Shown here: one piece after another, positions 2,219 to 60,891 of the stretch
How the letters are laid out: the number at the start of each line of letters is the position of its first letter
Position numbering within the stretch: position 1 is the first letter of the stretch
Translations under genes and position numbers: made by a program
Notes under the pieces: generated by a model
What the model was told of the DNA's origin: nothing
The model's database searches: none
Seen by the model: the letters and a program-made list of their open reading frames with translations, nothing else
Assembly (NCBI GenBank): GCA_947570695.1
Contig: CANOVB010000005.1
Span: 67,487-131,486, forward strand
From: an uncultured Clostridium sp.
Lineage (GTDB): Bacteria; Bacillota; Clostridia; TANB77; CAG-508
DNA length: 64,000 nucleotides
Direction: 5' to 3'

Positions 2219-4564
2219 TTAATTATTATTTGAGTTAAATGATGTTATTGCATCTTCATTATCGAACTTATAAGATAAATTTGATTCATTATTTTGAATT
2301 GGATCCATATCATTTGGATTATCTGGTTTAGCATGGAAATTAATATTTCTTAAATCAAATTTATTTTTGCTATAATCATCATTATCACTACCAGCTGTTG
2401 ATATTCCATTTGTAAATTTATTAAAATTATATTTTTTAATTTTTTGTTTTTCTTTATATCTTGATTCCAAGAAATCGATTTTTGCTTGACCAACAAGGTT
2501 TTTACCTTTTAAATCTTTTGTTTTATATATAATGAATTTAAATTTTAATGCCTGAACCTTACCAGCCTTAAAGTTTGGTATCCATTGCCACTTGATGCTC
2601 TTGTAAGTATCATCATATTTACCTTGATCTGTCTTATAATCATGAGTAAACATCCAACGTCTCTTATCTCCAAGTTCTTTTTCCCACCATTCATTATCTT
2701 CTGGGGTGTTATTACCAAATATAACTTTAGTAGTACAGTTAGCTAAAATTGTTTGTCTAAAGTTATAATCATTTTTAATACCAAATTGTGATAAGTTTTG
2801 AGATGATATAATTGTTCCAACTCTATATTTTCTATATAAAGTAAATATATCTTCTGTTGCTTTACATACAAAAGGTGGAAATTCATCAATATATAGGAAG
2901 TGGGGGATTCTAGTTTTTTCGTTTCCTGGTCTAGATAATACTGATTGTTGCATAAGTAGTATAAAGAATAGACCAAAAGCTTTGTGTATACTAGCTCCTA
3001 AATCGCCACGTCGTGTACATACTAAAGTTACATCTCCATTTACTAAAGCTTTATCATAATTTAAATTATTTGCTCTGTTACATAATATATTTCTAACACC
3101 TGGATACCTAAGTAGATTTTCAAGTTGTGAAGCAGAAGCTTGTAAGTATCTTGCTGTTTCTTCACGACCTTGAGCAGTTTTATAGAATGTTTTCTTAAAG
3201 TATCCAAGCTGAATTTTATATTCTTCAGCAAGTTCTGGATATTGCTTCATTTGTTCTGCCATTTGTTCTATTAAATCAAAATCATTTAATAGTTCTAATA
3301 AATCTTCTAAGTTTGGAAGTAAGCCTTCATGTTCTCTAGGATAAACTTCTTTTAACATTAATACTAAATTTTCAATGGCTTGAGTAACTATATTTTCCAT
3401 AAAAGCTTCATCATGATTTCCAAAATTTGGTACTTCTTCAGATGCGTACATTCTTTTTAGGATAGAAGATATAGCTATTGAAGTTTTCATAGGATCTTCA
3501 TAAGTGAATGGATTTAATCCTATAGAGCTATTGTCATTTGGGTCTATGATATGATATTTAACACCAAAGTTATTTGCAATATCCTTTACATGAGTTATTG
3601 ATTCATAATCAGGAGCCATATAAGTTATACCAAGATTTTTGTAAATTGAATTTTCACCATCATAATTATAAAGCATTTTTGCAAAATATGCTTTGAAAAC
3701 TTTTTCTTTACTTGGTACAGGTGTAATCATATTTAAATTAAAGTTTTCATTTATATAATCATTAGAAAAAGGACAAGAAAGAGTAGCTATATTAGTACGC
3801 AATGCTGTATATCCTAATTCTTTTGAAGTTTCTTTGAAAAAATATTTTTTCTCTAAATCTCTTGCAATCATTGGCTCAAACATCATTGAAGTTTTTCCTG
3901 AACCAGATACACCAACAATTAAAGTAGATTCAAAACGCCTAGATTCTGGAGTTTTGATTGTTTTTCCAGTTTCTCTGTCTCTACATAAGAACATTTCACA
4001 AGTAAATGGACCCATTCCAATAGATTTGTCTGATAAATCTATTCCGCCATAATCCCAAATTGATTCTTTAATGTATAATGTGTCATCAACTTTTGTATAT
4101 AACCATTTAAAAAATGGGAATATTGTACATACTGGAATATACCAAGCAAATGCTGAAAAAGCAGGCTTTATTAAATCCATAAAATTTGCAATAATATAAG
4201 AATAGTTTGGTACAGAGAAAAGTAATAACCATCCTAAATGGTTTATCCATTGAACAATCATTGATATTACTACTATATGTAACGCTGAAGCGTATATATA
4301 AAAGAAAGATGTTTTTGTGTATTTATCTGTAGCAAATTTTGATGAAGGAGAGAAGTAAAATGCAAATACTGGACATGCTAAAGCTAGTGTATATGTTATT
4401 GGACCCCAATAAGATACAGATAATCCAGAGAAAACTATAAATAGTACTTCTACAATTCTGTCAACACAAATATAGATAGAAATCAATGTTAAAATATAAG
4501 TAGCAAAGGTATTCCTATCAGTTTTTAATAATTTCAAAAATTTATCAATGTATTTCATAATCAT
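2219..4564 (-). CDS. membrane-anchored P-loop NTPase, TraG/TraD/VirD4 (type IV coupling protein)-like; about five N-terminal TM helices, then an ATPase domain
   Basis: RBS AAAGAGGA upstream of the ATG. Hydrophobic N-terminal ~170 aa. Walker A IVGVSGSGKTS and a Walker-B-like FLYIDEFPPF about 340 aa later; the long A-B spacing fits T4CP better than FtsK. Low-complexity C-terminal tail. Confidence 0.45.
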   Translation of the reverse strand: MIMKYIDKFLKLLKTDRNTFATYILTLISIYICVDRIVEVLFIVFSGLSVSYWGPITYTLALACPVFAFYFSPSSKFATDKYTKTSFFYIYASALHIVVISMIVQWINHLGWLLLFSVPNYSYIIANFMDLIKPAFSAFAWYIPVCTIFPFFKWLYTKVDDTLYIKESIWDYGGIDLSDKSIGMGPFTCEMFLCRDRETGKTIKTPESRRFESTLIVGVSGSGKTSMMFEPMIARDLEKKYFFKETSKELGYTALRTNIATLSCPFSNDYINENFNLNMITPVPSKEKVFKAYFAKMLYNYDGENSIYKNLGITYMAPDYESITHVKDIANNFGVKYHIIDPNDNSSIGLNPFTYEDPMKTSIAISSILKRMYASEEVPNFGNHDEAFMENIVTQAIENLVLMLKEVYPREHEGLLPNLEDLLELLNDFDLIEQMAEQMKQYPELAEEYKIQLGYFKKTFYKTAQGREETARYLQASASQLENLLRYPGVRNILCNRANNLNYDKALVNGDVTLVCTRRGDLGASIHKAFGLFFILLMQQSVLSRPGNEKTRIPHFLYIDEFPPFVCKATEDIFTLYRKYRVGTIISSQNLSQFGIKNDYNFRQTILANCTTKVIFGNNTPEDNEWWEKELGDKRRWMFTHDYKTDQGKYDDTYKSIKWQWIPNFKAGKVQALKFKFIIYKTKDLKGKNLVGQAKIDFLESRYKEKQKIKKYNFNKFTNGISTAGSDNDDYSKNKFDLRNINFHAKPDNPNDMDPIQNNESNLSYKFDNEDAITSFNSNNN

Positions 4565-10458: not shown

Positions 10459-10524
10459 AATTAAAAAGTAAATTTGGTAAAAAAATCAAAGGTTATTAAA
10501 AATAATTTTTGATTTTTTTTAATA

Positions 10525-10553
10525 TTGCAAAAATGCCTAGAGTGATATATAAT
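10525..10553 (+). promoter_or_regulatory. sigma-A-type promoter upstream of leuS
   Basis: TTGCAA, 17 bp spacer, TATAAT. Preceded by an rplT terminator hairpin. No T-box leader: the gap is only ~130 bp. Confidence 0.5.
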
Positions 10554-10589
10554 AAAAAACATCATAATAAAGAAAAGGGAGAGAAAGCT

Positions 10590-13502
10590 ATGGGATATAA
10601 TTTTAAAGAAGTAGAAGAAAAATGGCAAAAAAAATGGTATGAAGAAGGAACTTTTAATGCAAAACAAGATTTTACAAATAAAAAGAAATGGTATGGATTA
10701 ATAGAATTTCCTTATCCATCAGGGCAAGGTCTACATGTAGGACATCCAAGATCTTATACAGCATTAGATATTATTGCAAGAAAGAAAAGAATGGAAGGAT
10801 ATAATGTTTTGTATCCTATTGGTTTTGATGCTTTCGGACTCCCAGCTGAAAATTATGCTATTAAAAATCATGTTCACCCAAAAATAACAACAGAAAATAA
10901 TGTAAATCATTTTAGAGAACAATTAAAATCTTTAGGATTTTCTTTTGATTGGTCAAGAGAAGTAAATACAACAGATCCAGAATATTATAAATGGACACAA
11001 TGGATTTTTATTCAATTATATAAACATGGATTAGCTTATAAAGCTACTATGCCAATTAATTTCTGTACTGGTTGTAAAGTTGGATTAGCAAATGAGGAAG
11101 TTGTTAATGGTGTTTGCGAAAGATGTGGAAGCCCAGTAGTGCAAAAAGAAAAATCACAATGGATGCTTAAAATAACAGAATATGCTCAAAGATTAATTGA
11201 TGATTTAGATGATATAGATTATTTAGATAAAATAAAAGCTCAACAAAAGAATTGGATAGGTAGAAGTGAAGGGGCAGAGGTTAATTTTAAAGTTGCCTCT
11301 GATGAAGATATTATATTTAATAAAGATTCAAAAGTAGAGAAAATTAATTCTAGTGAAAATGATTCTTTATTAATTTATACTACTAGACCAGATACAATAT
11401 TTGGAGCAACATATATGGTTGTAGCTCCAGAACATGAATTAATAAAAAAATATGCAGATAAAATTACTAATTTATCAGAAGTAGAAGAATATAAGAAAAA
11501 AGCTGCTTTAAAATCTGATTTTGAAAGATCAGAGTTAAATAAAGAAAAAACTGGTGTTGAAATTAAAGGACTTAAAGCAATTAATCCATTAACAAATGAA
11601 GCTATTCCAATTTGGATTTCTGATTATGTTTTAATTACTTATGGGACAGGTGCTATTATGGCAGTTCCTGCACATGATGATAGAGATTTTGAATTTGCAA
11701 CTAAATTTAATTTACCTATAAAACAAGTTATTGCACCAGTATTTTATGGAACAGGAGATTCAGAAGTAAGACCAGATAAGAAAAATACAGAAAGAAAAGT
11801 CATTAATGTAGTTGTAAAACATCCAACAGAAAAAAAATTCTTATGTGTAAACAATGATAAATTTGGATTTAAGAATTTTGTTATGGGTGGATTTGAAGGA
11901 GAAGAAACGCCAGTAGAAGCAGCAGCTAGAGAGCTTAGAGAAGAAACTGGTTATACTGATTTTAGAGTGGATTATGTTTTTGATTTTATTTATAAATCAA
12001 AATTTTATGCTGCACATAAAGATGTAAATAGAGATATTACTTGTTATACTGTTGCTGTAACTTTAAATTCATTAAAACAAGAAAAAGTATCAGAAGAAGA
12101 ACAAAAAATTCAATATCCAGTATGGGTAAATGCAGATAAATTAAATGAATATTTAACAACAGAAGAACATATATACACATATTCATTATATGAAAAACCT
12201 CAAGCCTTTACAGATGTTGAAAAAGGAGTTGCTATAAATTCAGATTTCCTAAATGGATTATCTTCAAAAGAAGCTATAAAAAAGGCAACAGATTATATTG
12301 AAGAAAAGAAATTAGGAGAAAGAAAAGTAAATTATAAATTACGTGATTGGGTATTTTCTCGTCAAAGATATTGGGGAGAGCCAATACCAATGGTATATTG
12401 CGAAGATTGTGGCTGGAATCCAATTAAAGAAGAAGAATTACCACTCGTACTTCCAGATATAGAAGATTATGAACCGGGAGAAAATGGAGAGTCACCTTTA
12501 GCAAAACAAACAGAATGGATAAAAACAAAATGTCCATGTTGTGGTAAGGATGCTAAAAGAGAAACAGATACAATGCCACAGTGGGCAGGTTCTTCATGGT
12601 ATTTCCTAAGATATATGGATGCTCATAATAAAGAAGCTTTGGCTTCAAAGGAAGCATTAGAATATTGGTCACCAATAGATTGGTATAATGGAGGAATGGA
12701 GCATACAACACTTCACTTATTATACTCAAGATTTTGGCATAAATTTTTATATGATATTGGTGTTGTTCCAACAAAAGAGCCATATCAAAAACGTACTTCA
12801 CATGGTATGATTTTAGGTGGAAATGGTGAAAAAATGTCTAAATCAAAAGGAAATGTTATAAATCCTGATGATATAGTTAAAGAGTTTGGTGCAGATACTT
12901 TTAGAGTATATGAAATGTTTATGGGACCTTTTGATCAAACAGCACCATGGTCTATGGAATCTATTAGAGGATGTGGCAAATTCTTAGATAGAGTATGGAA
13001 TATGCAAGATATTTTGGTAGACGGAGATGAATATTCTAAAGAGCATGAAAAAATGATGCATAAAGCTATAAAAAAAGTTACTTCAGATATTGAGGAAATG
13101 AAATTTAATACTTCAGTTGCAGAATTTATGAAAATGACAAATGAATTTTATAAGGATAAAAAGATTAATAAGGCAGAATATAAAACATTTTTACAATTAT
13201 TAAATCCATTTGCACCACATATGACAGAAGAATTATTTAATATTCTAGGAGAGACTAAGACAATAAATGAAACACCTTGGCCAAAATATGATGAAGCTAA
13301 AACTATTGATGATGAAATAGAAATACCAGTACAAGTAAATGGAAAGGTAAAAGCTGTTATTACTGCTAATAAAGAAGCTTCTCAAGAAGAAGTTAAGGCT
13401 ATAGTAGATAGTAATGAAATAATTAAAAATGCTTTGGCAGGAAAAAATGTAGTAAAAGAAATTTATGTAAAAGGAAAAATATACAATATAGTAGTTAAAT
13501 AA
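10590..13502 (+). CDS. leuS: leucyl-tRNA synthetase carrying an in-frame ~140-aa Nudix-hydrolase-like insertion
   Basis: HVGHPRSY (HIGH-like) and KMSKSKGN motifs with end-to-end LeuS similarity. Between [21 protein letters not shown] and INSDFLNGL there are ~165 aa where E. coli LeuS has ~25. The insert contains [23 protein letters not shown], which is GX5EX7REUXEEXGU. RBS AAAAGGGAGAG. Confidence 0.9.
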
Positions 13503-14572: not shown

Positions 14573-14703
14573 TTTTTTATCCTCCTACAAAATATATGTT
14601 CGGTAAAACTTTGTTTGTTTTATTTTACAATTTAAAAAATAAAATGTCAATACTTTTTCGAAAAAATGTTCGGTATTTTTAAAAAATAAAGAAACTTTAT
14701 AAA

Positions 14704-14745
14704 ATAAAAAACGCGGGGGCGGAAAACCGCCCCCAACATGGTTTG
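14704..14745 (-). terminator. GC-rich rho-independent terminator of the foreign cassette gene
   Basis: GCGGGGGCGG-AAAA-CCGCCCCC hairpin followed by a T-tract on the minus strand. It sits ~75 nt past the stop of the 14822-16099 gene. This terminator style is shared with the other GC-rich cassettes and absent from host genes. Confidence 0.7.
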
Positions 14746-14821
14746 AAGATTGCAATAGTAAGGGATTTGAAAGTGCTAATTTACCGTAATCCGAAGTGCC
14801 AGCATGTGAACATCACGAACG

Positions 14822-16099
14822 TTACGTGATATTCAATGTTTTGCCGTTGGTCAAGACCACTTGTGTTACGAGTCCCAATTTGTTGGTGTTGAAGCTCGCA
14901 GCGTCGTAACAGAACCGATAGCCGTCCTGAGGGCGGTCATAGATGGAACTGACGAACACCTGATTATCCCTGATATAGCAGAACTGCTTATCAGAGATGA
15001 AGCCGAAAGCGGTGATGTTTGACATGTACCACCCTGTATAGATTCTCGAGGCGATAATCGTCCCATTGAGATACAGGGAGCCGTCTGTAAGCATCAGAGT
15101 GTTGCTTTCAACTGTGCCCTTGGTGTACAAGGTAGCATAGGTGTCCTTTACGACAGCGTAGGTTTCCTTAGCAATCCACTTGTCGTTTGTGGAGGTGAAT
15201 TGCTTCAGGGTGTAAGTGGACTTCTCTGTAACGATTTCCGAGAGGAAACCATTGCTGTCAGTCCTGAAGGTCTTGAACTTGCTGTCCAGGGTAACCTTCT
15301 CCGCAGAGTACCAGTTTCCGAAAGTGAAACGGTACAGAGTACCATTGCTTTCGTAGAGGTACACGTTGTAGCTGGTATCGAATCCCAAGAATTTAGCACC
15401 CTTAAGGGTGTCGGACAGCCGGACGCCGTGAGTTGCATTGAGAACGCTCTTTTCGTCTTTGCTCACAATGATGGAAACCTTCAGGTTGCCAAACTCGTAA
15501 GCGTTACGAACGAACTCGCTCTCAGCGTTGGTGTACATTTCAACACGGCTGGTGTTATTTCCCGGCCTCTGAGGAACAGAAGGCTGAGAAGGCTGGCTGG
15601 GTTGAGACGGCTGGGAAGGCTGAGTCGGCGTACTGGGAACGGTGCTACCAGTAAGAGACTGGTTACCACTTGTGGTTTGCACCGAAGTTGCCAGATCGTC
15701 GCTGTTGTAAAGCAGACATGTTACGCCAGAAGCGTACCAAGTCGATTGCTTACCATCGCTTCCAACGCTAATCAGTGCACCAGCGCTGGTGACGTAGAAG
15801 AAATCGCCATTTGTGGCAAAGCCGTTGTAACGGGAACCGGAGCCAGCAGAGTTGCTCGCAAGAACGGTTCCATTGTTGTTATACACGGTGCTGCCGATGC
15901 TGTAAAAGCTTTTGCTGGGAACGTGGGCGTCCTGCCGGCGGTCATAGGTGTACAGCTTGTACCAGGTGCAGCCCGAGGAGGCGTCATCATAGGTAAAGCC
16001 GTACGGCGCTGTGTCGGCGGTCGTGGCGGCGAAAGCAGTGGGGCAGACCCCAAAGAAGCAGCACACAACCAGGAACAATGCGATCAAAGATTTTTTCAT
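14822..16099 (-). CDS. secreted two-domain protein of unknown function with a (PSQ)n linker; foreign GC-rich composition
   Basis: Start at MKKSLIALFLVVCCFFGVCPTAFAATT (signal peptide) with RBS AGAAAGG. Extended -10 promoter TGCTATAAT with -35 TTGCCT upstream. About 55-58% GC against a ~27% background, with codons such as CTG/GGC/CGC/ACC. Internal 9-bp tandem repeats encode PSQPSQPSQPSQPS. No recognisable homology. Confidence 0.7.
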   Translation of the reverse strand: MKKSLIALFLVVCCFFGVCPTAFAATTADTAPYGFTYDDASSGCTWYKLYTYDRRQDAHVPSKSFYSIGSTVYNNNGTVLASNSAGSGSRYNGFATNGDFFYVTSAGALISVGSDGKQSTWYASGVTCLLYNSDDLATSVQTTSGNQSLTGSTVPSTPTQPSQPSQPSQPSQPSVPQRPGNNTSRVEMYTNAESEFVRNAYEFGNLKVSIIVSKDEKSVLNATHGVRLSDTLKGAKFLGFDTSYNVYLYESNGTLYRFTFGNWYSAEKVTLDSKFKTFRTDSNGFLSEIVTEKSTYTLKQFTSTNDKWIAKETYAVVKDTYATLYTKGTVESNTLMLTDGSLYLNGTIIASRIYTGWYMSNITAFGFISDKQFCYIRDNQVFVSSIYDRPQDGYRFCYDAASFNTNKLGLVTQVVLTNGKTLNIT

Positions 16100-16255
16100 G
16101 TTAGTCAACCTTTCTGTGTTAAAATAAATCTTCAAAACCATGTTAGTTCAACAAATAGCCAAAAGGTCAGCTAAATAAAGTTGAACATCAAATCCCATAA
16201 AATCATTATAGCACAAACTAGTAAAAAAGGCAAATTTATGTAAAGCTATAAAAAG

Positions 16256-21562: not shown

Positions 21563-21648
21563 TATACATATAAAAGTGAAATAAAATGTGATATTATATG
21601 TTTATGTAAAAAAATGTGTTTTTTTACTGTAAACAAAGGAGAAATGTA

Positions 21649-23262
21649 ATGTTAAGCTGTTTGGGAATTTATGTAGATAAAAACTTAATAAAATACGCAA
21701 AATTAAAAAAGAACAAAGATACATTAAAAGTTGAAGCTTTTAATGTTGAAGCTTTTGAGAATTTAGATGTTGCATTAAAAAAAGTTATAAATGAAACAAA
21801 CAGTTCAAGAATTCCAATAAGTATAAATATATCAGATGAGCTTTACAATTATTTTGAAGTATTCTCAGTTTTAGAAAAAAAGGATATTACAAAATCTTTA
21901 GATATAGAATTTGAAATGTTATGTGATTCAAGAGGATATGATAAAAGTTTGCTTGAATCAAGATATATTTTAATGGAAAACAAAAATAATTATGATAAAT
22001 ATAAATCATTATATATATCTGCAAATAAAAATGAAATAGATAGAAAATTGAGTATTCTTTCAGAGTATAAATTAGCTTCAATGACACCAGTTTCAACAAG
22101 TATAACAAATCTTATTGAACCAAAACAGGGCGAAAATATTGCAATTATTAATATAGAAAATGAAACAAAAATTACAACTATAATAGATGGTCAAATTAGT
22201 AGAGTTGATGTTTTAAATTCAGGAATGGATGAGATATCACAAAAAATAAATAAAATAGAATTATCATGGAAAAAAGCTTATGATGTGTATAAAAATATTA
22301 CAATTTATGCTCATGAAGTTTTAAGCTTAGAAGAAGATGAGAATGAATATATAGATATTGTAATGCCAGTTTTATATAAAATAGCAAATGAATCAAAAAA
22401 AATAATTAATACTTCTAAAGATAGAATAGACAAAGTTTATATAACAGGTACAGGTGCAACAATTAATAATGTTGATTTATATTTCCAAGAGTTTTTTAAA
22501 AAAGCAAAATGTGAAATATTAAAACCATTTTTTATTGATTCTAGTTCTTTAAAAGTACCAGCAAAAGAATATATAGAAGTAAATTCTGCTATTGCACTTG
22601 CCTTAGATGGATTAGGGTATGTAAATAAAGATTTAAATTTTGCACCAGTATCCAAATTTGATAATATAGATATTGAAACAATAATGAATTCTAAAGATAA
22701 TATAGATTTTAAAAATTGGAAAAATTCATTTAAATCACCTTTTGATATACAAGAAAAAATGATAGCAAGAGGAATTGCAGTATTTTTAATAGCAACTATT
22801 GGTTTTTCTGTAATGGGAACTAGTATTATGAATCAAATAAGTTTGCAAAAAGATGAAGCAAAAGAACAGCTAACTCAAACTATTGCTCAAATATCAACAA
22901 TGGAGAGTGAACTTTCAAGAATAGAAAGTCAGACCAATCAATATGCTACTTTGATTAATAGCGTAGATTCTTTAAATGAAGCAAATGCTAGTGTTCAAAA
23001 TAGTAGAATAATATCTAAAGGTGCTATACCAAATTTATTAACAAGAATAATGTTTATAATACCGCAACAAGTACAAGTTATTTCAATAGAAAATAAAGAA
23101 GGTAAACATATTATTATAGAGGCTGTATCAGAAAAATATGAACAATTAGGTTACTTTTCAGCTGCAATAAAAAATGATGGTATGCTTCAAAATATTCAAT
23201 CAACAAGTGCTACAAAAAGTGATTCACTTGTTCAAATTACAATAGAAGGAGATTTACCATGA
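21649..23262 (+). CDS. type IV pilus assembly PilM-like ATPase-fold domain fused to a PilN-like TM/coiled-coil domain
   Basis: N-terminus LGIYVDKNLIKYAKLKK resembles PilM GIDIGS..IK.VEL. C-terminal ~170 aa carries one TM plus a coiled coil, as in PilN. RBS AAAGGAGAAATG. Cluster context with pilO and pilC. Confidence 0.55.
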   Translation: MLSCLGIYVDKNLIKYAKLKKNKDTLKVEAFNVEAFENLDVALKKVINETNSSRIPISINISDELYNYFEVFSVLEKKDITKSLDIEFEMLCDSRGYDKSLLESRYILMENKNNYDKYKSLYISANKNEIDRKLSILSEYKLASMTPVSTSITNLIEPKQGENIAIINIENETKITTIIDGQISRVDVLNSGMDEISQKINKIELSWKKAYDVYKNITIYAHEVLSLEEDENEYIDIVMPVLYKIANESKKIINTSKDRIDKVYITGTGATINNVDLYFQEFFKKAKCEILKPFFIDSSSLKVPAKEYIEVNSAIALALDGLGYVNKDLNFAPVSKFDNIDIETIMNSKDNIDFKNWKNSFKSPFDIQEKMIARGIAVFLIATIGFSVMGTSIMNQISLQKDEAKEQLTQTIAQISTMESELSRIESQTNQYATLINSVDSLNEANASVQNSRIISKGAIPNLLTRIMFIIPQQVQVISIENKEGKHIIIEAVSEKYEQLGYFSAAIKNDGMLQNIQSTSATKSDSLVQITIEGDLP

Positions 23263-37128: not shown

Positions 37129-37239
37129 AAAAGAGAGATAGAAAATAATCTATTATAAGTATTTACATTTTTTAATTTTATGATATAATATGTAACATAG
37201 TAAAAAAGGCGTTTGATTAAGAATTAAGTAGTAAATAAA

Positions 37240-37442
37240 CTTTTTAAAAGAGAGCTTATGGTTGGTGAGAATAAGTAAAAGAATTTACGAAATCTACTCT
37301 TAAGAGTTTCTAGAAAACTAGACCGAGTTATTGCAGGTTATAGCAATTTGAAAGATGGATTAGATTAATCTAAAAAAGGTGGTACCGCGATATATTCGCC
37401 CTTATGTATTTTTTACATGGGGGCGTTTTTGTTTAAAATATT
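37240..37442 (+). promoter_or_regulatory. T-box riboswitch leader, probable Ser (UCU) specifier
   Basis: Conserved T-box core AAAAGGTGGTACCGCG at 37375-37390. It is followed by the terminator GCCCTTATGTA-TTTTT-TACATGGGGGC plus a T-run. A stem I candidate has AAAUCUAC in the specifier-loop position. Confidence 0.75.
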
Positions 37443-37483: not shown

Positions 37484-38284
37484 ATGATATTTAATGGAAA
37501 TGATATTAAAAAATTAATTGATGAAGAAAAGATAATTGATAATTGTGATAAGGAATATATTGCTTCAGGTTCGTGTGATATATCAATGAGCAAGGAAATC
37601 TTAAAAATAAAGAAGACTTTTAAACCAATAGATTTATCAAGTCCTGAAAATATAGAAAATATGTATGAAAAAATAGAAATTAAAGAAAGCTACAATTTTA
37701 AACCTAATGAAGTTATTTTTGTAAAATTAAACGAAAAAATAAATTTACCATCAAATATTGTAGCACATATAAGACCTAGAACTTCATTAAGTAGATTAGG
37801 TATAATAATAAATTTTCAACATATTAATGCAGGATATAGTGGTACTTTAAATATAGCAATGTATAATCTATCTCCTAATACTTATAAAATACAGCCAGGA
37901 ATGAGAATAGGGCAGATTGTATTTGAGGAGTTAACAGATGGAATTACTGATGATTTAATATATGGAAACGAAAAGAATCCAAGCTACCAAAACGAAGATG
38001 GGTTAACTGGCTCAAAGATATATGGTGATTTTGTAGGAAAAGTATTTAGACATTTTAAGGGAAACTATTATTTTATAGAAGATGTTAGCACAGATTCTGA
38101 AACTAAAGAAGATATAATAGTTTATAGACCCTTGTATGAGAGACAAGATTCTATGCTTTGGACAAGACCAGCAAAAATGTTTTTTGAGGAAATTGATGAA
38201 AATAGAAAAGATAATGTAACTGGTCAAAAACACAGGTTTGAACTGGTTGAAGATTTAAGTAAAGATTATATAAGTGAAAAATAA
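37484..38284 (+). CDS. dCTP deaminase-like (dUTPase-fold) domain fused to a C-terminal DUF1653-like domain
   Basis: N-terminal ~150 aa show RPRTSLSRLGII...GYSG...RIGQIVFEEL, the Dcd signature. The C-terminus repeats the YRHFKGNYY...VYRPLYE...WTRP...MFFEE...RFELV pattern of the next gene. Confidence 0.65.
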   Translation: MIFNGNDIKKLIDEEKIIDNCDKEYIASGSCDISMSKEILKIKKTFKPIDLSSPENIENMYEKIEIKESYNFKPNEVIFVKLNEKINLPSNIVAHIRPRTSLSRLGIIINFQHINAGYSGTLNIAMYNLSPNTYKIQPGMRIGQIVFEELTDGITDDLIYGNEKNPSYQNEDGLTGSKIYGDFVGKVFRHFKGNYYFIEDVSTDSETKEDIIVYRPLYERQDSMLWTRPAKMFFEEIDENRKDNVTGQKHRFELVEDLSKDYISEK

Positions 38285-41655: not shown

Positions 41656-41694
41656 ATAGAGCCCAATTCAAAATGAATTGGGCTCTATTTTTTA
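41656..41694. terminator. bidirectional terminator shared by the XRE gene (+) and glmS (-)
   Basis: ATAGAGCCCAATTC-AAAAT-GAATTGGGCTCTAT flanked by A- and T-runs. Confidence 0.65.
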
Positions 41695-43527
41695 TTCAAC
41701 AGTAACTGATTTTGCTAAATTTCTTGGCTTATCAACATCTAATCCTTTTTCTTTAGAAATATAATATGCTAAAATTTGAAGTGGCACAACTGAAAGAACA
41801 GGAGAGATAAGTATATTAGTTTTTGGTATTCTAATTACTTCATCAAAATCATGATTTAATTCTTGATTTGTAACTATAAAAGTTTTAGCTCCACGAGTTA
41901 CAACTTCTTGAATATTACTAACTGATTTTTCAACTAAAAGCCTATTAGTTAATACAGAAACAACAGTTACTCCATTTTCAATTAAAGCGATTGCACCATG
42001 TTTTAATTCTCCAGAAGGATAAGCTTCTGAATGAATATAAGAAATTTCTTTAAGTTTTAAAGAACCTTCTAATGCAACTGTATGGTCAACTCCTCTACCA
42101 ATAAAAAATACATCTTTTTCTTTATATATTTTCTGAGCAAAAGCTTTTATTTTATCTGTATTTTTCAAAACTTCTTCAAGTTGTGTAGGAAGAAGTAGTA
42201 TGTCTTTTTTTAGTTCTTCTAATTTTTCTTTATTTAAACCTAATTTTTCCGCAAAATTAATTGCAAGTATTGTAAGCAATACAATTTGAGAAGTATAAGC
42301 TTTAGTAGATGCAACAGCTATTTCTGGACCTGCATGTGTATAAAGAGTATAATCTGCTTCTCTTGAAATTGATGATCCTATTACATTTGATATTGCAATA
42401 GTTTTGGAATTATGAGCTTTAGCAAGTTTTAAAGCTGCGATTGTGTCAGCTGTTTCTCCAGATTGAGTTATAAATAAGCATAAAGTTTTCTCATTTATAA
42501 TAGGGTTTCTATATCTAAATTCAGAAGCAGCTTCAACCTCAACTGGAATTTCACATAAACTTTCAAAAGTAGTTTTGCAGGCCATACCAGCATGCATAGC
42601 TGTACCACAAGCTACTATGAATATTTTATTAATTGATTGTAAGAATTTTTTATCTAAATCTATTTCTGGAAGAACAGAAGCAGATTTTTCTGGAAGTCTA
42701 GAACCTATAGTTTCTCTAATTGATTTTGGTTGTTCATTAATTTCTTTTAACATGAAATCAGGATATCCATCTTTTTCAGCGGCTCCAGCATCCCAAGTGA
42801 TATTTTTCAATTCTTTATCTATTTTATTTAAATTTTCATCATAAAATGTTACATTATTTTTATCTATAAATGCAAATTCTTTATCATTTAATAAATAAAA
42901 ATCTTTTGTAAATGATAATATTGCAGGAATATCAGAGCTTATATAACATTCTCCAGTTCCTTTTCCTATAACTAATGGACTATCTTTACGAACTACAACC
43001 ATATTTTTAGGAAAATCTGAACATAAAATTTCTAATGCGTAACTTCCTTTTAACATTTTACAAGCATCTGTAACTGCATGCATAAATCTTTTTTCATTTT
43101 TTTCTTTTGATGATTCATAATAAAAATGTATTAAATTAGGTATAACCTCAGTATCTGTTTCAGATAGAAAATGATATTTATGAGATTTTAAAAATTCTTT
43201 TAAATCGGCATAATTTTCAATAATACCATTATGAACTACAGCAAATTTTTCTGAGTTATCTAAATGAGGGTGAGAATTAGTGCTAGATGGCTTACCATGT
43301 GTTGCCCATCTAGTATGACCAATTCCTAGCGTTCCTTCTAGTTTTTCTATTCCGTCTATTTTTTCAAGTTCACTAACACGACCTTTATTTTTTATATTTC
43401 TAATACCACTATTTTCCATAGTAGCTATTCCAGCAGAGTCATATCCTCTGTATTCTAGTCTTAAAAGACCATTAATTAATATTGGCTTTGCTTTTTTTTC
43501 TCCTATATAACCAACTATTCCACACAT
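41692..43527 (-). CDS. glmS: glutamine--fructose-6-phosphate aminotransferase
   Basis: MCGIVGYIG N-terminal nucleophile, then a glutaminase domain and two SIS domains. 611 aa. Confidence 0.9.
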   Translation of the reverse strand: MCGIVGYIGEKKAKPILINGLLRLEYRGYDSAGIATMENSGIRNIKNKGRVSELEKIDGIEKLEGTLGIGHTRWATHGKPSSTNSHPHLDNSEKFAVVHNGIIENYADLKEFLKSHKYHFLSETDTEVIPNLIHFYYESSKEKNEKRFMHAVTDACKMLKGSYALEILCSDFPKNMVVVRKDSPLVIGKGTGECYISSDIPAILSFTKDFYLLNDKEFAFIDKNNVTFYDENLNKIDKELKNITWDAGAAEKDGYPDFMLKEINEQPKSIRETIGSRLPEKSASVLPEIDLDKKFLQSINKIFIVACGTAMHAGMACKTTFESLCEIPVEVEAASEFRYRNPIINEKTLCLFITQSGETADTIAALKLAKAHNSKTIAISNVIGSSISREADYTLYTHAGPEIAVASTKAYTSQIVLLTILAINFAEKLGLNKEKLEELKKDILLLPTQLEEVLKNTDKIKAFAQKIYKEKDVFFIGRGVDHTVALEGSLKLKEISYIHSEAYPSGELKHGAIALIENGVTVVSVLTNRLLVEKSVSNIQEVVTRGAKTFIVTNQELNHDFDEVIRIPKTNILISPVLSVVPLQILAYYISKEKGLDVDKPRNLAKSVTVE

Positions 43528-43574: not shown

Positions 43575-43795
43575 ATATATTGCCCCTAAACCTAATTTAA
43601 GAATAGGGTGTAAGCTAACTTAATATGATTACTGGTTAAAAATCTGTTATAGTATTGCTACTATTTTTTTTCTTAACCTATGGTAGTAATTACCACTAGA
43701 GCATCCGCCGAATCTTTCGATAACTCTAGACCTCGTCAACTATTTTTAAAATTTATATGTATAAAAATTTTAAAGTAGTCCTGGCGCTAACCTTT
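43575..43795 (-). ncRNA. glmS ribozyme (GlcN6P-responsive self-cleaving riboswitch) in the glmS 5' UTR
   Basis: The minus strand reads ...GTTAGCGCCAGGACT... (cleavage-site/P1 region) and ...TTGACGAGGTCTAGAGTTATCGAAAGATTCGGCGGATGCTCTAG..., matching the conserved GACGAGG and UUCGGCGGAUGC core elements. Confidence 0.75.
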
Positions 43796-44072
43796 GTTTT
43801 AAATAATATACTCCTTTCTAAACTTTTGCTTACAAACTAGAAATTAAAAATTTTTTCTAGTAACCTATTTCTTTTATATAATATTCGAATTTTTTTAAAA
43901 TGTCAATATTATTTTTTGGATGTTAATGAATGTATATATATAAATGCATTCTAAATATTGAGGCTCTAAGAATTAAAATTTAAATAATTCTGGTAAAACA
44001 TTGCTAAAAGGAAATAAATATTCTTTACATGAAAAAGTAATTATAATATAATAGCTATGTATTAAAAATAGA

Positions 44073-57825: not shown

Positions 57826-60800
57826 TTAGTTTCCATCTGAAATTTTATAAACAATATTAAAATATTCAAATTTATCTGTTTCATTATTATATAGACAATC
57901 TAAATAAGAATTTAATTCTACAATATTTTTACAAGCTGTTATTATTGCTGGATTTAGATTAGAAGTAAACATTAAATCTAATCCTAAGTCTATAGCTGCA
58001 CGAATTGATGATTTTTCTTTTACTCTCATAAGAGTATAAGCCTCTTTGAAACGGGCAGATATAGGATTTTTATATACAGAAAGTGGAACAGTATATTCAT
58101 TTTCTATAACATCATCTACTGTTTTATATTTTTCAGAACCATTAAGTTTTTCACCAATTTCTTCTGAAGTATAAGGTAAGTACACTTTTTGAGTTTCTTC
58201 TGAAATTAGAAGAGTATTGCAATCATAAATTGATGAGACTAAAGCTTCTTCTTCATTTTCTAATTTTGAAATTATATCAGATAAAGAATCCATCATTTTA
58301 AATAAATCACTAGCAGGATCATTATCTATATCTATTTCAGAACTAATATCATTTTGGATATCTATTCTGTTTAAAGTATCAATATTATCGAAATTATTTC
58401 CTTCATTAAAGAATTCAGCAACATCAGTATGTTGAACATTAGTTTCTTTATCAATTTCAATATCAATATTTTCTTCACTAAATTCTTCACTAATACCAAA
58501 ATCTTCTTTATTTAAATTTTCACTACAATAGGTGATTTCTTCATTAGCATTGTAAATATCTTCTGAAGAATTATTTTGAATTTTACCATTTTCTTCATTA
58601 ATATTTTTTTCAACTGGTGCTCCAACTGTTAAAATTTCATTTTCAACATCTGATTCAAGCTCTATTTTTTCTGAAGTATTATCTAAGTCAAAAGAAACAT
58701 TTAATGTATTAGAAGACTCAAAAGATAAAACTTCTGTTAATAATTCCTCTTTCATCTTTTCATCAATATCACATTCAGATGAAGAAAGTTTTTCTTCAAA
58801 AATACTTTCTATGCTAGAAGCCTCATCATTAACTATATCTGATTCAGCAATAGTTTCTATATCTTTAATGTAATTTACATTTTCGGCTTCATTATCTAAA
58901 CTAGAGATATCATCATTTATATTGTCTATTTTAGTTGGAACTACGATGTTGTTATAGTAAGTAGCTTCATCATTAAGTGATAAATCATCAGAAATAGGGG
59001 AAGGAGCTACCTGAACTTCTGGTACAGCAACAGTATTAGCTGCAGCTACTTCTTGAATGGCTTCTAATGGTTTGGCAGTTGGTTCAAAATTATTTAAAAC
59101 ATTATGAATATCATTTTTCAATGAATTAACATCTGTTTGTAAGAAACTGTTTCCAAATGGTGTATTTAAGTTTGAATTTATAAAATTAGTTTCATCAAAA
59201 CTGAATTTTTTAAATATATTTGAAAATGCAGGAGTTGAAGATTTAGAACTTTCAGGTTTTGAAAAGCCTATTACATCCGTATTAATACTGCCAGCTACTT
59301 CAAAGGATAATTTATTTGTTAAATTAGTAGATGTTTCATCAATATTATTAAATGGAATAATGTTATCTGCTGCTTCATCTAAAACTACTCCATTTGTATA
59401 GTCATCATTTTCTATAGATGAATTTTCTTTTTCATAAAAATTTTCAGAAGGTAGTATATCATAATTATTAAAGTATATATTTAAATCTATATCTTTATCT
59501 TGAACTTCAACTTTATCTGAAGTTTCAGTTACTTCATCAATATTATCAATAACTTCTTCTTGTGTATCGCTTAAAATTTCATTTGCTTCATAACTAGTTT
59601 CAGAATCGTTTTGTATATCGCCTAAAGTTTTATCTACTTCATAGTTAGTTTTAGAATCTTCTTGTGTATTATCTGAAATTTCATTTGATTCATAATTAGT
59701 TTCATCTTGAATATTATTTGAAACTTCATTTATTTCGGAAATATTTTGTATATAATCATTAACATCATTTATAACTTCATCTTCAGAATTAATAGAATAG
59801 TCGTCAATTTTGTTAGTAATTTCAGCACAATCAGAGCTATTTAAATTGTCTACTTCCTCATCAATAATTTCAACTTCTGAATTAGTTTCAATTAAAGAGT
59901 CATATTCTTTTTCAATTTCTAATTCAGTATCAACATCAGCTTCAGAAACAACAATATCAAGTCCATTATCTATATCTCCAAGTAGAGGAGAATAATCGTT
60001 TCCTATTGAAGTTTTCACTTTACTAATATCAATAATTTTATCTGAATTTATATTTCCATCATTAATAGAATTTTCATTTTCTTCAACAATTTCTCCAGTA
60101 ATGTTGAATATATCTGAAATTTCTGTATCTATAATATTTGTAACATCATCTGAATTTGTTTCATTAATAATAGAATTATCAGAGATTTCTGCTTGATCAT
60201 TTGTTATATCATCAAAAGAGCAAATATCTTCAATTAAATCAGAAGAGTTATCTTCGATTTCTGTAATTACATTATTAATAGCAGATGCAATTTCTGATTC
60301 AATATCATAAGTTTCATCTGTTTTTATATTATCAACTTCTTCGATAGTAGAGGTATAGATATCATCAGTTTCGTTTTCTGAGTCTGTAACTGTAATATCA
60401 AATTTTTTAAATACAGAAGGTTCATAGAAAAATGTTGCATTTTGATTTATAGAAGAATCCTTTTTTGTGGATGCGCTAGAAACAACAGGTGTAACAACTA
60501 GAAGTGGCACATCTTGTAGTGGAACTTCTTTTTTTTCATTTGCAACTCCATTAACAGGTTCTTTAAATTCTTCTTTAACTGTTTCTTTATTTTTCCCTAA
60601 ATTTAAACAAAGATTTCTTTTTCTAGAATTGCCTTTTTTTACTATATCTGGTCTTATAATACTATGCTTAATTGCAGAATTTATAGAGACTGTAGGCAAT
60701 ACTTCAGGCTCTATTTTTACATTTTCTTTTTTTGGTTTAGAGACTTTTTCTGTAGTTTTTTTCTTAGTGTCTACAGTTGTTTTTTTGGCAGTAGTTTTTT

Positions 60801-60891
60801 TACTAATTTTTAATGTTGGTTTTGATTTTGATTTTGCTTTAGATTTTGATCCTGCTTTTTTTTCAACTGCTTTTGCGGATTTTGTTACCAT
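57826..60891 (-). CDS. giant (1021 aa) protein: lysine-rich basic N-terminus, ~700-aa hyper-acidic low-complexity (D/E/N/S/I) region, conserved-looking ~180-aa C-terminal globular domain
   Basis: Single long ORF with no internal stops. N-terminus KKAGSKSKAKSKSKPTLKISKKTTAKKTT. C-terminal domain ...ISARFKEAYTLMRVKEKSSIRAAIDLGLDLMFTSNLNPAIITACKNIVELNSYLDCLY. Confidence 0.55.
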   Translation of the reverse strand: MVTKSAKAVEKKAGSKSKAKSKSKPTLKISKKTTAKKTTVDTKKKTTEKVSKPKKENVKIEPEVLPTVSINSAIKHSIIRPDIVKKGNSRKRNLCLNLGKNKETVKEEFKEPVNGVANEKKEVPLQDVPLLVVTPVVSSASTKKDSSINQNATFFYEPSVFKKFDITVTDSENETDDIYTSTIEEVDNIKTDETYDIESEIASAINNVITEIEDNSSDLIEDICSFDDITNDQAEISDNSIINETNSDDVTNIIDTEISDIFNITGEIVEENENSINDGNINSDKIIDISKVKTSIGNDYSPLLGDIDNGLDIVVSEADVDTELEIEKEYDSLIETNSEVEIIDEEVDNLNSSDCAEITNKIDDYSINSEDEVINDVNDYIQNISEINEVSNNIQDETNYESNEISDNTQEDSKTNYEVDKTLGDIQNDSETSYEANEILSDTQEEVIDNIDEVTETSDKVEVQDKDIDLNIYFNNYDILPSENFYEKENSSIENDDYTNGVVLDEAADNIIPFNNIDETSTNLTNKLSFEVAGSINTDVIGFSKPESSKSSTPAFSNIFKKFSFDETNFINSNLNTPFGNSFLQTDVNSLKNDIHNVLNNFEPTAKPLEAIQEVAAANTVAVPEVQVAPSPISDDLSLNDEATYYNNIVVPTKIDNINDDISSLDNEAENVNYIKDIETIAESDIVNDEASSIESIFEEKLSSSECDIDEKMKEELLTEVLSFESSNTLNVSFDLDNTSEKIELESDVENEILTVGAPVEKNINEENGKIQNNSSEDIYNANEEITYCSENLNKEDFGISEEFSEENIDIEIDKETNVQHTDVAEFFNEGNNFDNIDTLNRIDIQNDISSEIDIDNDPASDLFKMMDSLSDIISKLENEEEALVSSIYDCNTLLISEETQKVYLPYTSEEIGEKLNGSEKYKTVDDVIENEYTVPLSVYKNPISARFKEAYTLMRVKEKSSIRAAIDLGLDLMFTSNLNPAIITACKNIVELNSYLDCLYNNETDKFEYFNIVYKISDGN

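What the first reader, a model, noticed from the sequence alone, without database searches (positions are those of the whole stretch)
11700..12260. Leucyl-tRNA synthetase carries an in-frame Nudix-hydrolase domain insertion
The LeuS reading frame is intact and canonical on both sides. Between the conserved [21 protein letters not shown] and [10 protein letters not shown]...[23 protein letters not shown] segments there are ~165 residues where E. coli LeuS has ~25. The extra segment contains [23 protein letters not shown], a perfect match to the Nudix box GX5EX7REUXEEXGU, embedded in a domain-sized (~140 aa) block. There are no intein junction residues, so it is a domain insertion, not a self-splicing element. 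A Nudix pyrophosphohydrolase fused inside an aminoacyl-tRNA synthetase could act on Ap4A-type dinucleotides that aaRSs make, or on a mis-activated adenylate. I am not aware of this architecture being described.
Basis: partly seen in the sequence, partly recalled or inferred. Interest (0 to 1): 0.7.

Follow-up and report, generated by a model that had tools for sequence, protein, structure and literature searches.

The report
Leucyl-tRNA synthetase with embedded Nudix enzyme
The cell's ordinary leucine-charging enzyme carries a complete, apparently active Nudix pyrophosphatase inside its proofreading domain; hundreds of uncultured gut bacteria share this design, and no paper found here describes it.

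Summary
leuS (ATG 10590 to stop 13502, 970 aa) is intact, with HIGH, KMSKS and both editing motifs. A 156-aa block (nt 11733-12200) sits in a loop of the CP1 editing domain where T. thermophilus LeuRS has 14 residues.

The design is widespread. About 56 species-level genomes of gut Bacilli and Clostridia carry it, and 106 of the best 149 family clusters are LeuRS. Some LeuRS carry the module at two CP1 sites, in up to three copies.

The module also sits inside a ProRS, and stands alone beside thrS in Saccharibacteria. It is under purifying selection (dN/dS about 0.1), is swapped between leuS alleles, and is absent from near-identical orthologues.

The substrate is unknown. My best guess, at about 35%, is dinucleoside polyphosphates such as Ap4A. 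No paper found describes the architecture, and NCBI names it only 'class I tRNA ligase family protein'.

The parts
10590..13502 (+). leuS coding sequence (970 aa plus stop): bacterial-type leucyl-tRNA synthetase with the embedded Nudix domain
   Evidence: ORF. TIGR00396 scores 994.8 bits against a cutoff of 548.4. P0059 is 100% identical over 970 aa. Synteny infC-rpmI-rplT-leuS-ygjP is the same as for the Nudix-less orthologue.
10525..10553 (+). Promoter-like site TTGCAA-17-TATAAT between rplT and leuS; a GGAG ribosome-binding site lies about 9 nt before the ATG
   Evidence: 10 of 12 matches. The number of such sites in the region is not above shuffled expectation, so this is only a candidate. 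No T-box leader was found upstream of leuS.
10734..10745 (+). HIGH signature (HVGH) of the class I catalytic core
   Evidence: Read from the sequence. Conserved as HxGH in all 184 aligned LeuRS.
11247..11732 (+). CP1 editing domain, part before the insert
   Evidence: PF13603 scores 191.6 bits, profile positions 1-143 of 185. AF2 pLDDT is 81-92 here.
11289..11360 (+). Small clade-variable insertion (~24 aa, [24 protein letters not shown]) in the first CP1 hairpin. This is 'site 1', where other LeuRS carry Nudix copies.
   Evidence: DNA alignment with the Nudix-less orthologue L087. Protein comparisons. Site-1 Nudix copies in P0220, P0214, P0217 and P0250.
11379..11396 (+). Threonine-rich editing motif TTRPDT
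   Evidence: Read from the sequence. Conserved (TTRxDT) across fusion and non-fusion LeuRS.
11643..11687 (+). Editing-site motif [15 protein letters not shown], which contains the universally conserved editing aspartate
   Evidence: Read from the sequence. Conserved in all aligned LeuRS. Aligns to T. thermophilus AVPAHDQRD.
11733..12200 (+). Inserted Nudix hydrolase domain (156 aa) at CP1 'site 2', apparently the tip of a beta-hairpin
11886..11954 (+). Nudix box [23 protein letters not shown] (catalytic, metal-binding helix)
   Evidence: Exact match to GX5EX7REUXEEXGU. It is the only match in the window. The box is intact in 38 of 39 species-representative fusions.
12003..12032 (+). Family-specific motif [10 protein letters not shown], 17-26 residues after the box. 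It holds the near-invariant Tyr at +18 and basic residues H, K and R.
   Evidence: Near-invariant in 84 fused and free-standing members. The Tyr position corresponds to the ApnA-hydrolase marker in the X-loop (PMC5389931).
12201..12335 (+). CP1 editing domain, part after the insert ([16 protein letters not shown]... to KVNYKLRDW)
   Evidence: Aligns to T. thermophilus LeuRS residues 378-417. Present in insert-less relatives.
12831..12845 (+). KMSKS signature of the class I catalytic core
   Evidence: Read from the sequence. KMSKS occurs in 172 of 184 aligned LeuRS.
13053..13382 (+). Anticodon-binding domain
   Evidence: PF08264 scores 66.3 bits.

Best explanation
Shown (confidence about 0.9): this is the organism's ordinary leucyl-tRNA synthetase, and both its synthetic and editing sites look intact. 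A complete, monomer-type Nudix pyrophosphohydrolase is built into a surface hairpin of the CP1 editing domain, about 16 residues after the catalytic aspartate motif. The module is kept by selection and keeps its catalytic glutamates. It belongs to a compact Nudix family found almost only in or next to aminoacyl-tRNA synthetases.

Inferred mechanism (confidence about 0.35): the Nudix domain uses its box glutamates and Mg2+/Mn2+ to cleave a nucleotide carrying a polyphosphate chain. The most likely substrates are dinucleoside polyphosphates (Ap4A, Ap3A, ApnN, p4A), which synthetases make when an enzyme-bound aminoacyl-adenylate is attacked by ATP or another nucleotide. Tethering the hydrolase to the synthetase would destroy these by-products or alarmones where they arise. 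This may matter in small-genome gut bacteria that could lack other Ap4A hydrolases.

Charging and proofreading of tRNA-Leu are expected to proceed as in other bacterial LeuRS.
For: LeuRS identity and integrity:
- TIGR00396 scores 994.8 bits against a cutoff of 548.4.
- HIGH, KMSKS, TTRPDT and AHDxRD are conserved in the window and in all fusions.
- The gene sits at the same infC-rpmI-rplT-leuS-ygjP locus as the Nudix-less orthologue.

Nudix identity and competence:
- Pfam scores 43 bits, and the box is perfect.
- The box is intact in 38 of 39 species representatives and in both copies of the tandem form L069.
- dN/dS is 0.02-0.24 for the insert, against 0.035-0.17 for the backbone (10 close pairs of 13).

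Specific coupling to synthetases:
- Of the best 149 family clusters among 1.84 billion representatives, 106 are LeuRS and 3 are ProRS-related. One of those is a complete ProRS with the module.
- Insertions occur at two different CP1 loops, in up to three copies.
- In 14 of 24 Saccharibacteria species the free-standing form lies directly upstream of thrS.

Polyphosphate-nucleotide substrate:
- A lupin Ap4A hydrolase is among the top HMM hits.
- A near-invariant Tyr lies 18 residues after the box, in the position that marks ApnA hydrolases (PMC5389931).
- Conserved H, K and R residues could bind a phosphate chain.
- The module is acidic (median pI 5.0, net charge about -10), which fits a small-molecule substrate better than RNA.
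Against: - No substrate was tested, and the Tyr marker is only a correlation.
- The family fails every curated NCBIfam Nudix model by a wide margin, for example RppH at 22 bits against 118 and YtkD at 25.8 against 154.4.
- CP1 lies far from the synthetic site where Ap4A would form, and I could not obtain model coordinates to measure geometry.
- Very close relatives do well without the module, so it is dispensable.
- I could not check whether these genomes lack YqeK, ApaH or RppH, or whether they hold a second leuS.
- Free-standing forms that retain tRNA-binding fragments (CP1 piece, anticodon-binding-like domain) could instead point to a tRNA-linked substrate.
Confidence: 0.4

Rival explanations
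1. The Nudix acts on an RNA or tRNA end. The synthetase domains (CP1, anticodon-binding domain) would deliver tRNA to a Nudix that removes a 5' triphosphate or cap, or trims a pyrophosphorylated or otherwise nucleotide-modified 3' CCA end, restoring chargeable tRNA.
For: - The module is always attached to or beside tRNA-binding parts: CP1, which binds the CCA end, and the ProRS anticodon-binding domain.
- Free-standing derivatives keep exactly those fragments: a ~280-aa mini-CP1 plus Nudix, and a ~250-aa anticodon-binding-like domain plus Nudix.
- Weak sequence or fold similarity exists to RppH, YtkD and the decapping effector AvrM14.
- In one Saccharibacteria locus, a RelA/SpoT-domain ORF lies between the Nudix gene and thrS. 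From my own knowledge, that family includes toxins that pyrophosphorylate tRNA 3' ends.
Against: - The module is strongly acidic (median charge about -10), unlike RNA-binding Nudix enzymes.
- Scores against RppH and YtkD models are far below their cutoffs.
- Mature tRNA has a 5' monophosphate.
- A Nudix would leave a 3' phosphate, not a chargeable end.
- The RelA/SpoT neighbour is a single case.
- The mini-CP1 form sits in a small-molecule nucleotide-enzyme cluster with CYTH, a deoxyribosyltransferase-like protein and a kinase.
Confidence: 0.18
2. The Nudix is an adenylate proofreader. It would hydrolyse released non-cognate aminoacyl-adenylates (such as norvalyl-AMP), adding a pre-transfer editing step.
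For: - The module lies within the editing domain, close in sequence to the editing motifs.
- All three associated synthetases (LeuRS, ProRS, ThrRS) misactivate near-cognate amino acids. This rests on established knowledge.
Against: - Aminoacyl-AMP is an acyl-phosphate of a nucleoside monophosphate, not a nucleoside diphosphate-X. To my knowledge no Nudix enzyme hydrolyses it; HIT-family enzymes do.
- About half of all synthetases edit, so three of three is not significant.
- The ProRS host is the type without a cis-editing domain.
Confidence: 0.08
3. The Nudix is a house-cleaning enzyme that merely rides on a permissive loop. An ordinary sanitising Nudix (NTP, oxidised nucleotide, ADP-ribose) would have landed in a tolerant, hypervariable CP1 loop. 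It would persist for co-expression or by chance and spread by recombination between leuS alleles, with no chemical link to aminoacylation.
For: - Both CP1 sites are insertion and deletion hot spots, with 7-45-aa variants in close relatives.
- Presence and absence alternate among near-identical orthologues: 42 of 120 and about 65 of 120 nearest LeuRS carry the module.
- Cassette histories disagree with backbone histories. L081 has 85% backbone and 41% insert identity to the window; L047 has 57% and 76%.
- Structural neighbours include NudI, MutT-like and ADP-ribose enzymes.
Against: - The same narrow Nudix family recurs at two LeuRS sites, in a class II ProRS and beside thrS, and is hardly seen in any other host protein among 1.84 billion representatives. 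That is not expected for an unlinked passenger.
- Purifying selection is nearly as strong as on LeuRS itself.
Confidence: 0.15
4. The feature is an artefact or a selfish element: an assembly chimera, an intein-like element removed after translation, or a degenerate non-catalytic spacer.
For: - Two short database fragments (P0056, P0058) lie on ~820-bp contigs that look chimeric.
- The patchy distribution and cassette exchange resemble mobile elements.
Against: - The identical 970-aa gene lies on at least 21 contigs from different samples with the same neighbours.
- About 56 species-level genomes carry the fusion.
- There is no Hint or endonuclease domain and no intein junction residues.
- Catalytic residues are conserved and dN/dS is about 0.1.
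- GC content of the insert matches its flanks.
Confidence: 0.02

Closest known systems
Canonical bacterial leucyl-tRNA synthetase (T. thermophilus 1H3N/2BYT, E. coli 4AQ7)
   Same: Same domain order and signatures: HIGH, CP1 editing domain with T-rich and Asp motifs, KMSKS, anticodon-binding and C-terminal domains. E-value is 1e-214 to the T. thermophilus enzyme, and TIGR00396 is passed.
   Different: It carries 156 extra residues forming a second enzyme where the T. thermophilus enzyme has a 14-residue loop (364-377). It has a further ~24-aa insertion in the first CP1 hairpin and lacks the leucine-specific domain. NCBI's pipeline no longer names such proteins leucine--tRNA ligase.
Small monomeric Nudix hydrolases acting on polyphosphate nucleotides: T. 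thermophilus Ndx1 (Ap6A), M. tuberculosis Rv2985, C. trachomatis CT771, A. aeolicus Ap4A hydrolase; also the uncharacterised E. faecalis 2AZW
   Different: Only 13-19% sequence identity. It has its own conserved motifs (N-terminal GDSxVRxDKxxTxR, [10 protein letters not shown]). It fails all curated subfamily models. It is embedded inside another enzyme instead of standing free.
Synthetases that carry an extra enzyme: IleRS with an N-acetyltransferase domain (NCBIfam NF040702) and Mycoplasma penetrans MetRS with an appended aminotransferase (PMC7694997)
   Same: A housekeeping aminoacyl-tRNA synthetase that has acquired a second catalytic domain in reduced-genome or host-associated bacteria.
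   Different: Different synthetase and different added enzyme. Here the domain is inserted inside CP1 rather than appended, occurs at two sites and in up to three copies, is polymorphic among close relatives, and has no curated model or publication that I could find.
Inteins in essential genes
   Same: A domain-sized in-frame insertion in a conserved housekeeping protein, with patchy distribution and a history independent of the host gene.
   Different: No Hint fold, no splice-junction residues and no homing endonuclease. The insert is a conserved enzyme fold under purifying selection and is expected to stay in the mature protein.
Double-Nudix proteins from gene duplication and fusion (Lin et al. 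2009, cited in PMC5389931)
   Same: Tandem Nudix copies occur in some LeuRS (L019, L020, L069), and the one copy checked (L069) has an intact box.
   Different: The duplication happened inside a synthetase loop. The second copies are very divergent from the first.

Membership tests
Bacterial leucyl-tRNA synthetase (TIGR00396 leuS_bact) | Whole-protein HMM score above the curated cutoff | tested here: met
   994.8 bits against a cutoff of 548.4, matched in two stretches split by the insert.
Bacterial leucyl-tRNA synthetase (TIGR00396 leuS_bact) | Class I signatures HIGH and KMSKS | tested here: met
   HVGH at nt 10734-10745 and KMSKS at nt 12831-12845. Both are conserved across fusions.
Bacterial leucyl-tRNA synthetase (TIGR00396 leuS_bact) | CP1 editing domain with the T-rich motif and the conserved aspartate motif | tested here: met
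   PF13603 scores 191.6 bits. TTRPDT and AHDDRD are present and conserved.
Bacterial leucyl-tRNA synthetase (TIGR00396 leuS_bact) | It is the housekeeping copy (orthologous locus, only leuS in the genome) | tested here: inconclusive
   The locus infC-rpmI-rplT-leuS-ygjP is the same as for the Nudix-less orthologue. The rest of the genome could not be searched for a second leuS.
Bacterial leucyl-tRNA synthetase (TIGR00396 leuS_bact) | Leucylation of tRNA-Leu and deacylation of mischarged tRNA-Leu | not testable with these tools
   Needs enzyme assays.
Nudix hydrolase superfamily (PF00293) | Pfam score above the gathering threshold | tested here: met
   43.0 bits on the insert and 38.8 bits in the whole protein, against a cutoff of 21.1.
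Nudix hydrolase superfamily (PF00293) | Nudix box GX5EX7REUXEEXGU with the catalytic glutamates | tested here: met
   [23 protein letters not shown]. Intact in 38 of 39 species representatives. R66, E67, E70 and E71 are invariant in 84 members.
Nudix hydrolase superfamily (PF00293) | Alpha/beta/alpha Nudix fold | tested here: met
Nudix hydrolase superfamily (PF00293) | Pyrophosphohydrolase activity | not testable with these tools
   Needs enzyme assays.
Nudix dinucleoside-polyphosphate (ApnA) hydrolases | Conserved tyrosine in the X-loop downstream of the box | tested here: met
   Near-invariant F91-Y92 lie 17 and 18 residues after the box. The marker is described in PMC5389931. It is a correlate, not proof.
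Nudix dinucleoside-polyphosphate (ApnA) hydrolases | Closest characterised structural relatives are ApnA hydrolases | tested here: inconclusive
RNA pyrophosphohydrolase RppH (NCBIfam PRK00714 models; B. subtilis type TIGR02705 YtkD) | HMM score above the curated cutoff | tested here: not met
   RppH models score 17-22 bits against cutoffs of 116-139. YtkD scores 25.8 bits against 154.4.
Inteins | Hint domain, N-terminal Cys/Ser, C-terminal His-Asn followed by Cys/Ser/Thr | tested here: not met
   The insert starts APVFYG and ends ...YEKP followed by Q. The only Pfam hit is NUDIX, and the fold is Nudix.

The most novel reading that the evidence does not exclude
This Nudix family may be a dedicated partner of aminoacyl-tRNA synthetases that performs an undescribed step coupled to aminoacylation. 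Candidates are in-place destruction of synthetase-made Ap4A/Np4N alarmones, or repair of nucleotide-modified tRNA ends. That would explain why the family has been captured repeatedly: two CP1 loops of LeuRS, up to three copies, a class II ProRS, and the thrS neighbourhood in Saccharibacteria. The presence/absence polymorphism and cassette swapping between leuS alleles would then reflect changing selection, for instance from toxins or phages that target tRNA or alarmone signalling.
Probability: 0.3. Interest if true: 0.85.

Novelty: new variant of a known kind. Interest (0 to 1): 0.68.

Why it matters
Aminoacyl-tRNA synthetases are the main cellular source of Ap4A-type dinucleotides, and the physiological role of those molecules is still debated. 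A natural synthetase with a pyrophosphatase built in gives a direct experimental handle: wild type, box mutant and natural Nudix-less orthologues at about 92% backbone identity can all be compared.

The finding also shows that the CP1 editing domain of an essential enzyme tolerates, and repeatedly acquires, a 156-aa enzyme at two loops. That is useful for synthetase engineering and for understanding how housekeeping proteins gain domains.

There is a practical point too. NCBI's pipeline labels the named examples only 'class I tRNA ligase family protein', so leuS may appear missing in annotations of many gut Bacilli and Clostridia genomes.

Tried and rejected
- The first exact look-up of the window protein failed because I started one codon too early, at 10587 instead of ATG 10590.
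- The word-indexed search with the insert alone returned almost only free-standing Saccharibacteria proteins and wrongly suggested that the fusion is very rare. The full-length search, the genome scan and the exhaustive representative search corrected this.
- The full-length AF2 model was poor in the catalytic core (mean pLDDT 66.7). No coordinates are returned, so I could not measure the distance or orientation of the Nudix site relative to the editing and synthetic sites.
- The afdb50 fold library was unavailable.
- PADLOC and PHROGs gave only generic Nudix matches.
- The Rfam scan found no T-box or other leader upstream of leuS.
- The promoter and terminator scan was not above background.
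- No direct repeats or microhomology were evident at the insert borders in the DNA alignment with the Nudix-less orthologue.
- Intein, assembly chimera and pseudogene readings were considered and rejected.
- Neighbours of free-standing genes other than thrS-miaA (GH25, ABC-F, YebC, HAD) showed no consistent theme.
Full report
**What is there.**
The ORF 10509..13502 on the + strand is open throughout. The biological start is ATG 10590, preceded by a GGAG ribosome-binding site. It gives a 970-aa protein that matches database protein P0059 in length and start and differs at one residue. Residue numbers from my 10587-based translation are +1, so I give nucleotide coordinates where it matters.

The protein is a bacterial-type leucyl-tRNA synthetase:
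- TIGR00396 scores 994.8 bits against a cutoff of 548.4.
- Pfam finds the class I core, the LeuRS editing domain (191.6 bits) and the anticodon-binding domain.
- HIGH (nt 10734-10745), KMSKS (12831-12845) and the two editing signatures TTRPDT (11379-11396) and [15 protein letters not shown] (11643-11687) are all present.

**The insert.**
Alignment to T. thermophilus LeuRS places window residues 384-543 opposite only residues 364-377 of that enzyme. This is a loop of the CP1 editing domain about 16 residues after the catalytic aspartate motif. The same alignment shows that the leucine-specific domain is absent.

Comparison with insert-less relatives shows that the backbone resumes at [14 protein letters not shown]. 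The true insert is therefore 156 aa, nt 11733-12200.
- Alone it scores 43.0 bits on Pfam NUDIX, against a cutoff of 21.1.
- It contains [23 protein letters not shown] (nt 11886-11954), an exact Nudix box. This is the only such pattern in all six frames of the window.
- It models with pLDDT 94.7 as a Nudix fold.
- In the full-length model, the CP1-plus-Nudix region and both junctions are confident (pLDDT 82-96), although the catalytic core is poor.

There is no Hint domain and there are no intein junction residues. GC content of the insert equals that of its flanks.

**It is real and it is the ordinary leuS.**
- The identical 970-aa gene lies on at least 21 independently assembled contigs from different samples, always in the order infC-rpmI-rplT-leuS-ygjP.
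- A Nudix-less orthologue with 92% backbone identity (P0109) occupies the same locus in a related genome.
- I could not search whole genomes for a second leuS.

**How widespread.**
A scan of one genome per species with a profile of the domain confirmed 139 loci. Of the 80 retained:
- About 56 have the domain inside a 941-984-aa LeuRS ORF. These are MAGs labelled uncultured Bacilli, Tenericutes or Mollicutes, Clostridia, Clostridium and Firmicutes.
- The other 24 have a free-standing ~160-aa gene. The titles I read label these Candidatus Saccharibacteria.

Two searches ranked mainly on LeuRS backbone similarity, and so less biased toward Nudix carriers, gave similar pictures:
- 42 of the 120 LeuRS nearest the window carry the domain.
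- About 65 of the 120 nearest a Bacilli-type LeuRS carry it.

An exhaustive HMM search of 1.84 billion representative proteins found 313 clusters at E <= 1e-10. Of the best 149, 106 are LeuRS, 33 are short free-standing proteins, 3 are ProRS-related and 7 match none of my reference proteins.

NCBI names the two examples I saw 'class I tRNA ligase family protein'. NCBIfam holds a special model for IleRS with a GNAT domain but none for this architecture. Six full-text literature searches found nothing on a LeuRS-Nudix or aaRS-Nudix fusion. A 2017 survey of the Nudix clan does not contain the words tRNA or synthetase.

**More than one way of being attached.**
- Some LeuRS carry the same Nudix family at a second place, the first CP1 hairpin just before TTRPDT. 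The window itself has only a 24-aa variable insertion there (nt 11289-11360).
- P0220 reads core-Nudix-CP1-Nudix-core-anticodon domain.
- P0214, P0215 and P0250 have three copies by profile matches or Nudix boxes. L019, L020 and L069 have two tandem copies at the window's site.
- P0280 is a complete archaeal-type ProRS with the module between the anticodon-binding and C-terminal domains. P0231 and P0241 are ~250-aa proteins made of an anticodon-binding-like domain plus the module.
- Seven ~280-aa proteins consist of a truncated CP1 piece, the module and the CP1 tail. One of them lies in a cluster with two CYTH enzymes, a deoxyribosyltransferase-like protein and a kinase.
- In 14 of the 24 Saccharibacteria species, the free-standing gene lies directly upstream of thrS-miaA on the same strand. 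Conserved synteny within that lineage may contribute to this.

**Selection and history.**
- The Nudix box is intact in 38 of 39 full-length species representatives.
- R66, E67, E70, E71, G73, Y74, K96 and W131 are invariant in 84 members. F91, Y92, H95, N99, R100 and E123 are nearly so.
- dN/dS for the insert is 0.02-0.24, against 0.035-0.17 for the LeuRS backbone over the same 10 close pairs.
- Insert and backbone histories disagree. L081 shares 85% backbone but 41% insert identity with the window. L047 shares 57% backbone but 76% insert identity, and the shift sits at the insert borders.
- In neighbour-joining trees, the Nudix-less LeuRS form a shallow group intermingled with the window and P0060. 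The Saccharibacteria free-standing clade is nested among fused inserts.
- The trees are simple distance trees and the deeper sample was chosen for having the domain. The direction of gain and loss is therefore suggestive only.
- The simplest reading is an old insertion, repeated loss or replacement of the cassette by recombination between leuS alleles, and occasional escape to free-standing genes.

**What it most likely does.**
Shown: a LeuRS with intact active-site motifs, carrying a constrained Nudix domain whose catalytic motif is intact.

Inferred: the substrate. Several points favour a nucleotide with a polyphosphate chain, most simply the Ap4A-type dinucleotides that synthetases themselves generate:
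- A lupin Ap4A hydrolase is among the top HMM hits.
- The near-invariant Tyr 18 residues after the box sits where ApnA hydrolases have their marker tyrosine (PMC5389931).
- Conserved H, K and R residues could hold a phosphate chain.
- The module is acidic (median pI 5.0, charge about -10), which argues against direct RNA binding.
- The only Nudix-type chemistry common to LeuRS, ProRS and ThrRS is adenylate-derived dinucleotide formation.

I put this at about 35%. The rivals are:
- An RNA- or tRNA-end activity, suggested by the retained tRNA-binding fragments in free-standing forms, at about 18%.
- A passenger house-cleaning enzyme in a permissive loop, at about 15%.
- Adenylate proofreading, at about 8%.
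- An artefact or intein, at about 2%.

The family fails every curated Nudix subfamily model. I therefore do not file it as an ApnA hydrolase or as RppH.

**Verdict.**
This is a genuine, selected and widely distributed domain architecture that I could not find described in the literature. I class it as a new variant of a known kind, namely synthetases with an added enzyme. What makes it unusual is that the added domain lies inside the editing domain, recurs at several sites and in several hosts, and varies among close relatives.

Noticed in passing
window 11289-11360; compare P0068, P0109 and L087: The first CP1 hairpin ('site 1') and the Nudix site ('site 2') are both length-hypervariable among LeuRS that are about 90% identical elsewhere. 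Site 1 varies from 7 to about 45 aa. Site 2 varies from 10 to 41 aa, or holds the 156-aa Nudix.
   Followed up: partly
L098 3843-7163 (P0220); P0214, P0215, P0217, P0250; L019, L020, L069: Some LeuRS carry the same Nudix family at two different CP1 sites or as tandem copies. Each protein holds up to three copies by profile matches or Nudix boxes, and most boxes are intact.
   Followed up: partly
L092 2906-4837 (P0280); L097 197-952 (P0231): A complete archaeal-type prolyl-tRNA synthetase has the same Nudix module between its anticodon-binding and C-terminal domains. Its box is slightly altered (D for E, K for R). Related ~250-aa proteins consist of an anticodon-binding-like domain plus the module.
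   Followed up: partly
L094 2459-6438 (P0228 at 3063-3884); also L095, L096, L093: Free-standing ~280-aa proteins are made of a truncated CP1 fragment, the Nudix module and the CP1 tail. One sits in a conserved cluster with two CYTH-domain proteins, a nucleoside deoxyribosyltransferase-like protein and a cytidylate-kinase-like protein.
   Followed up: partly
L002-L006, L028, L039, L041, L054, L057, L058, L063, L066, L068, L072, L073 and others: In Candidatus Saccharibacteria the free-standing Nudix gene lies directly upstream of thrS and miaA on the same strand, in 14 of 24 species loci.
   Followed up: yes
L062, ORF between the Nudix gene (179-649) and thrS (from ~1961): A 366-aa RelA/SpoT-domain protein (PF04607, 65 bits) is inserted between the free-standing Nudix gene and thrS in one Saccharibacteria genome.
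   Followed up: no
window 37203-37406 (+) and ORF 37484-38284: A T-box leader barely above threshold (93.8 bits against 93) precedes a dCTP-deaminase-like gene fused to DUF1653. That is an unusual gene for T-box control.
   Followed up: no
window 43624-43799 (-): A glmS ribozyme (77 bits) lies upstream of the 611-aa ORF 41692-43527 on the minus strand. I presume the ORF is glmS but did not check it.
   Followed up: no
window 14822-16141 (-): A 439-aa ORF has a hydrophobic N-terminal segment that looks like a signal peptide, a PSQ repeat run and no Pfam hit. GC rises to about 0.46 at its 3' end (14700-14999), against about 0.2-0.3 nearby.
   Followed up: no
window 2219-4564 (-): A TraG/TrwB-like type IV coupling protein lies a few kb upstream of the leuS locus. 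The same gene, next to a relaxase-like gene, is present in the related genome L087, so it looks like a conserved conjugative-element remnant.
   Followed up: no
L001 (821-bp ENA contig); P0058: Two short metagenome contigs carrying parts of a related LeuRS-Nudix gene look chimeric or error-laden. One has an in-frame stop. One ends in unrelated sequence, and P0058 joins Nudix sequence to a biotin-synthase-like C-terminus.
   Followed up: partly
window 57826-60891 (-) and 21616-23262 (+): Two large ORFs, of 1021 aa and 548 aa, have no Pfam match at E <= 1e-5.
   Followed up: no
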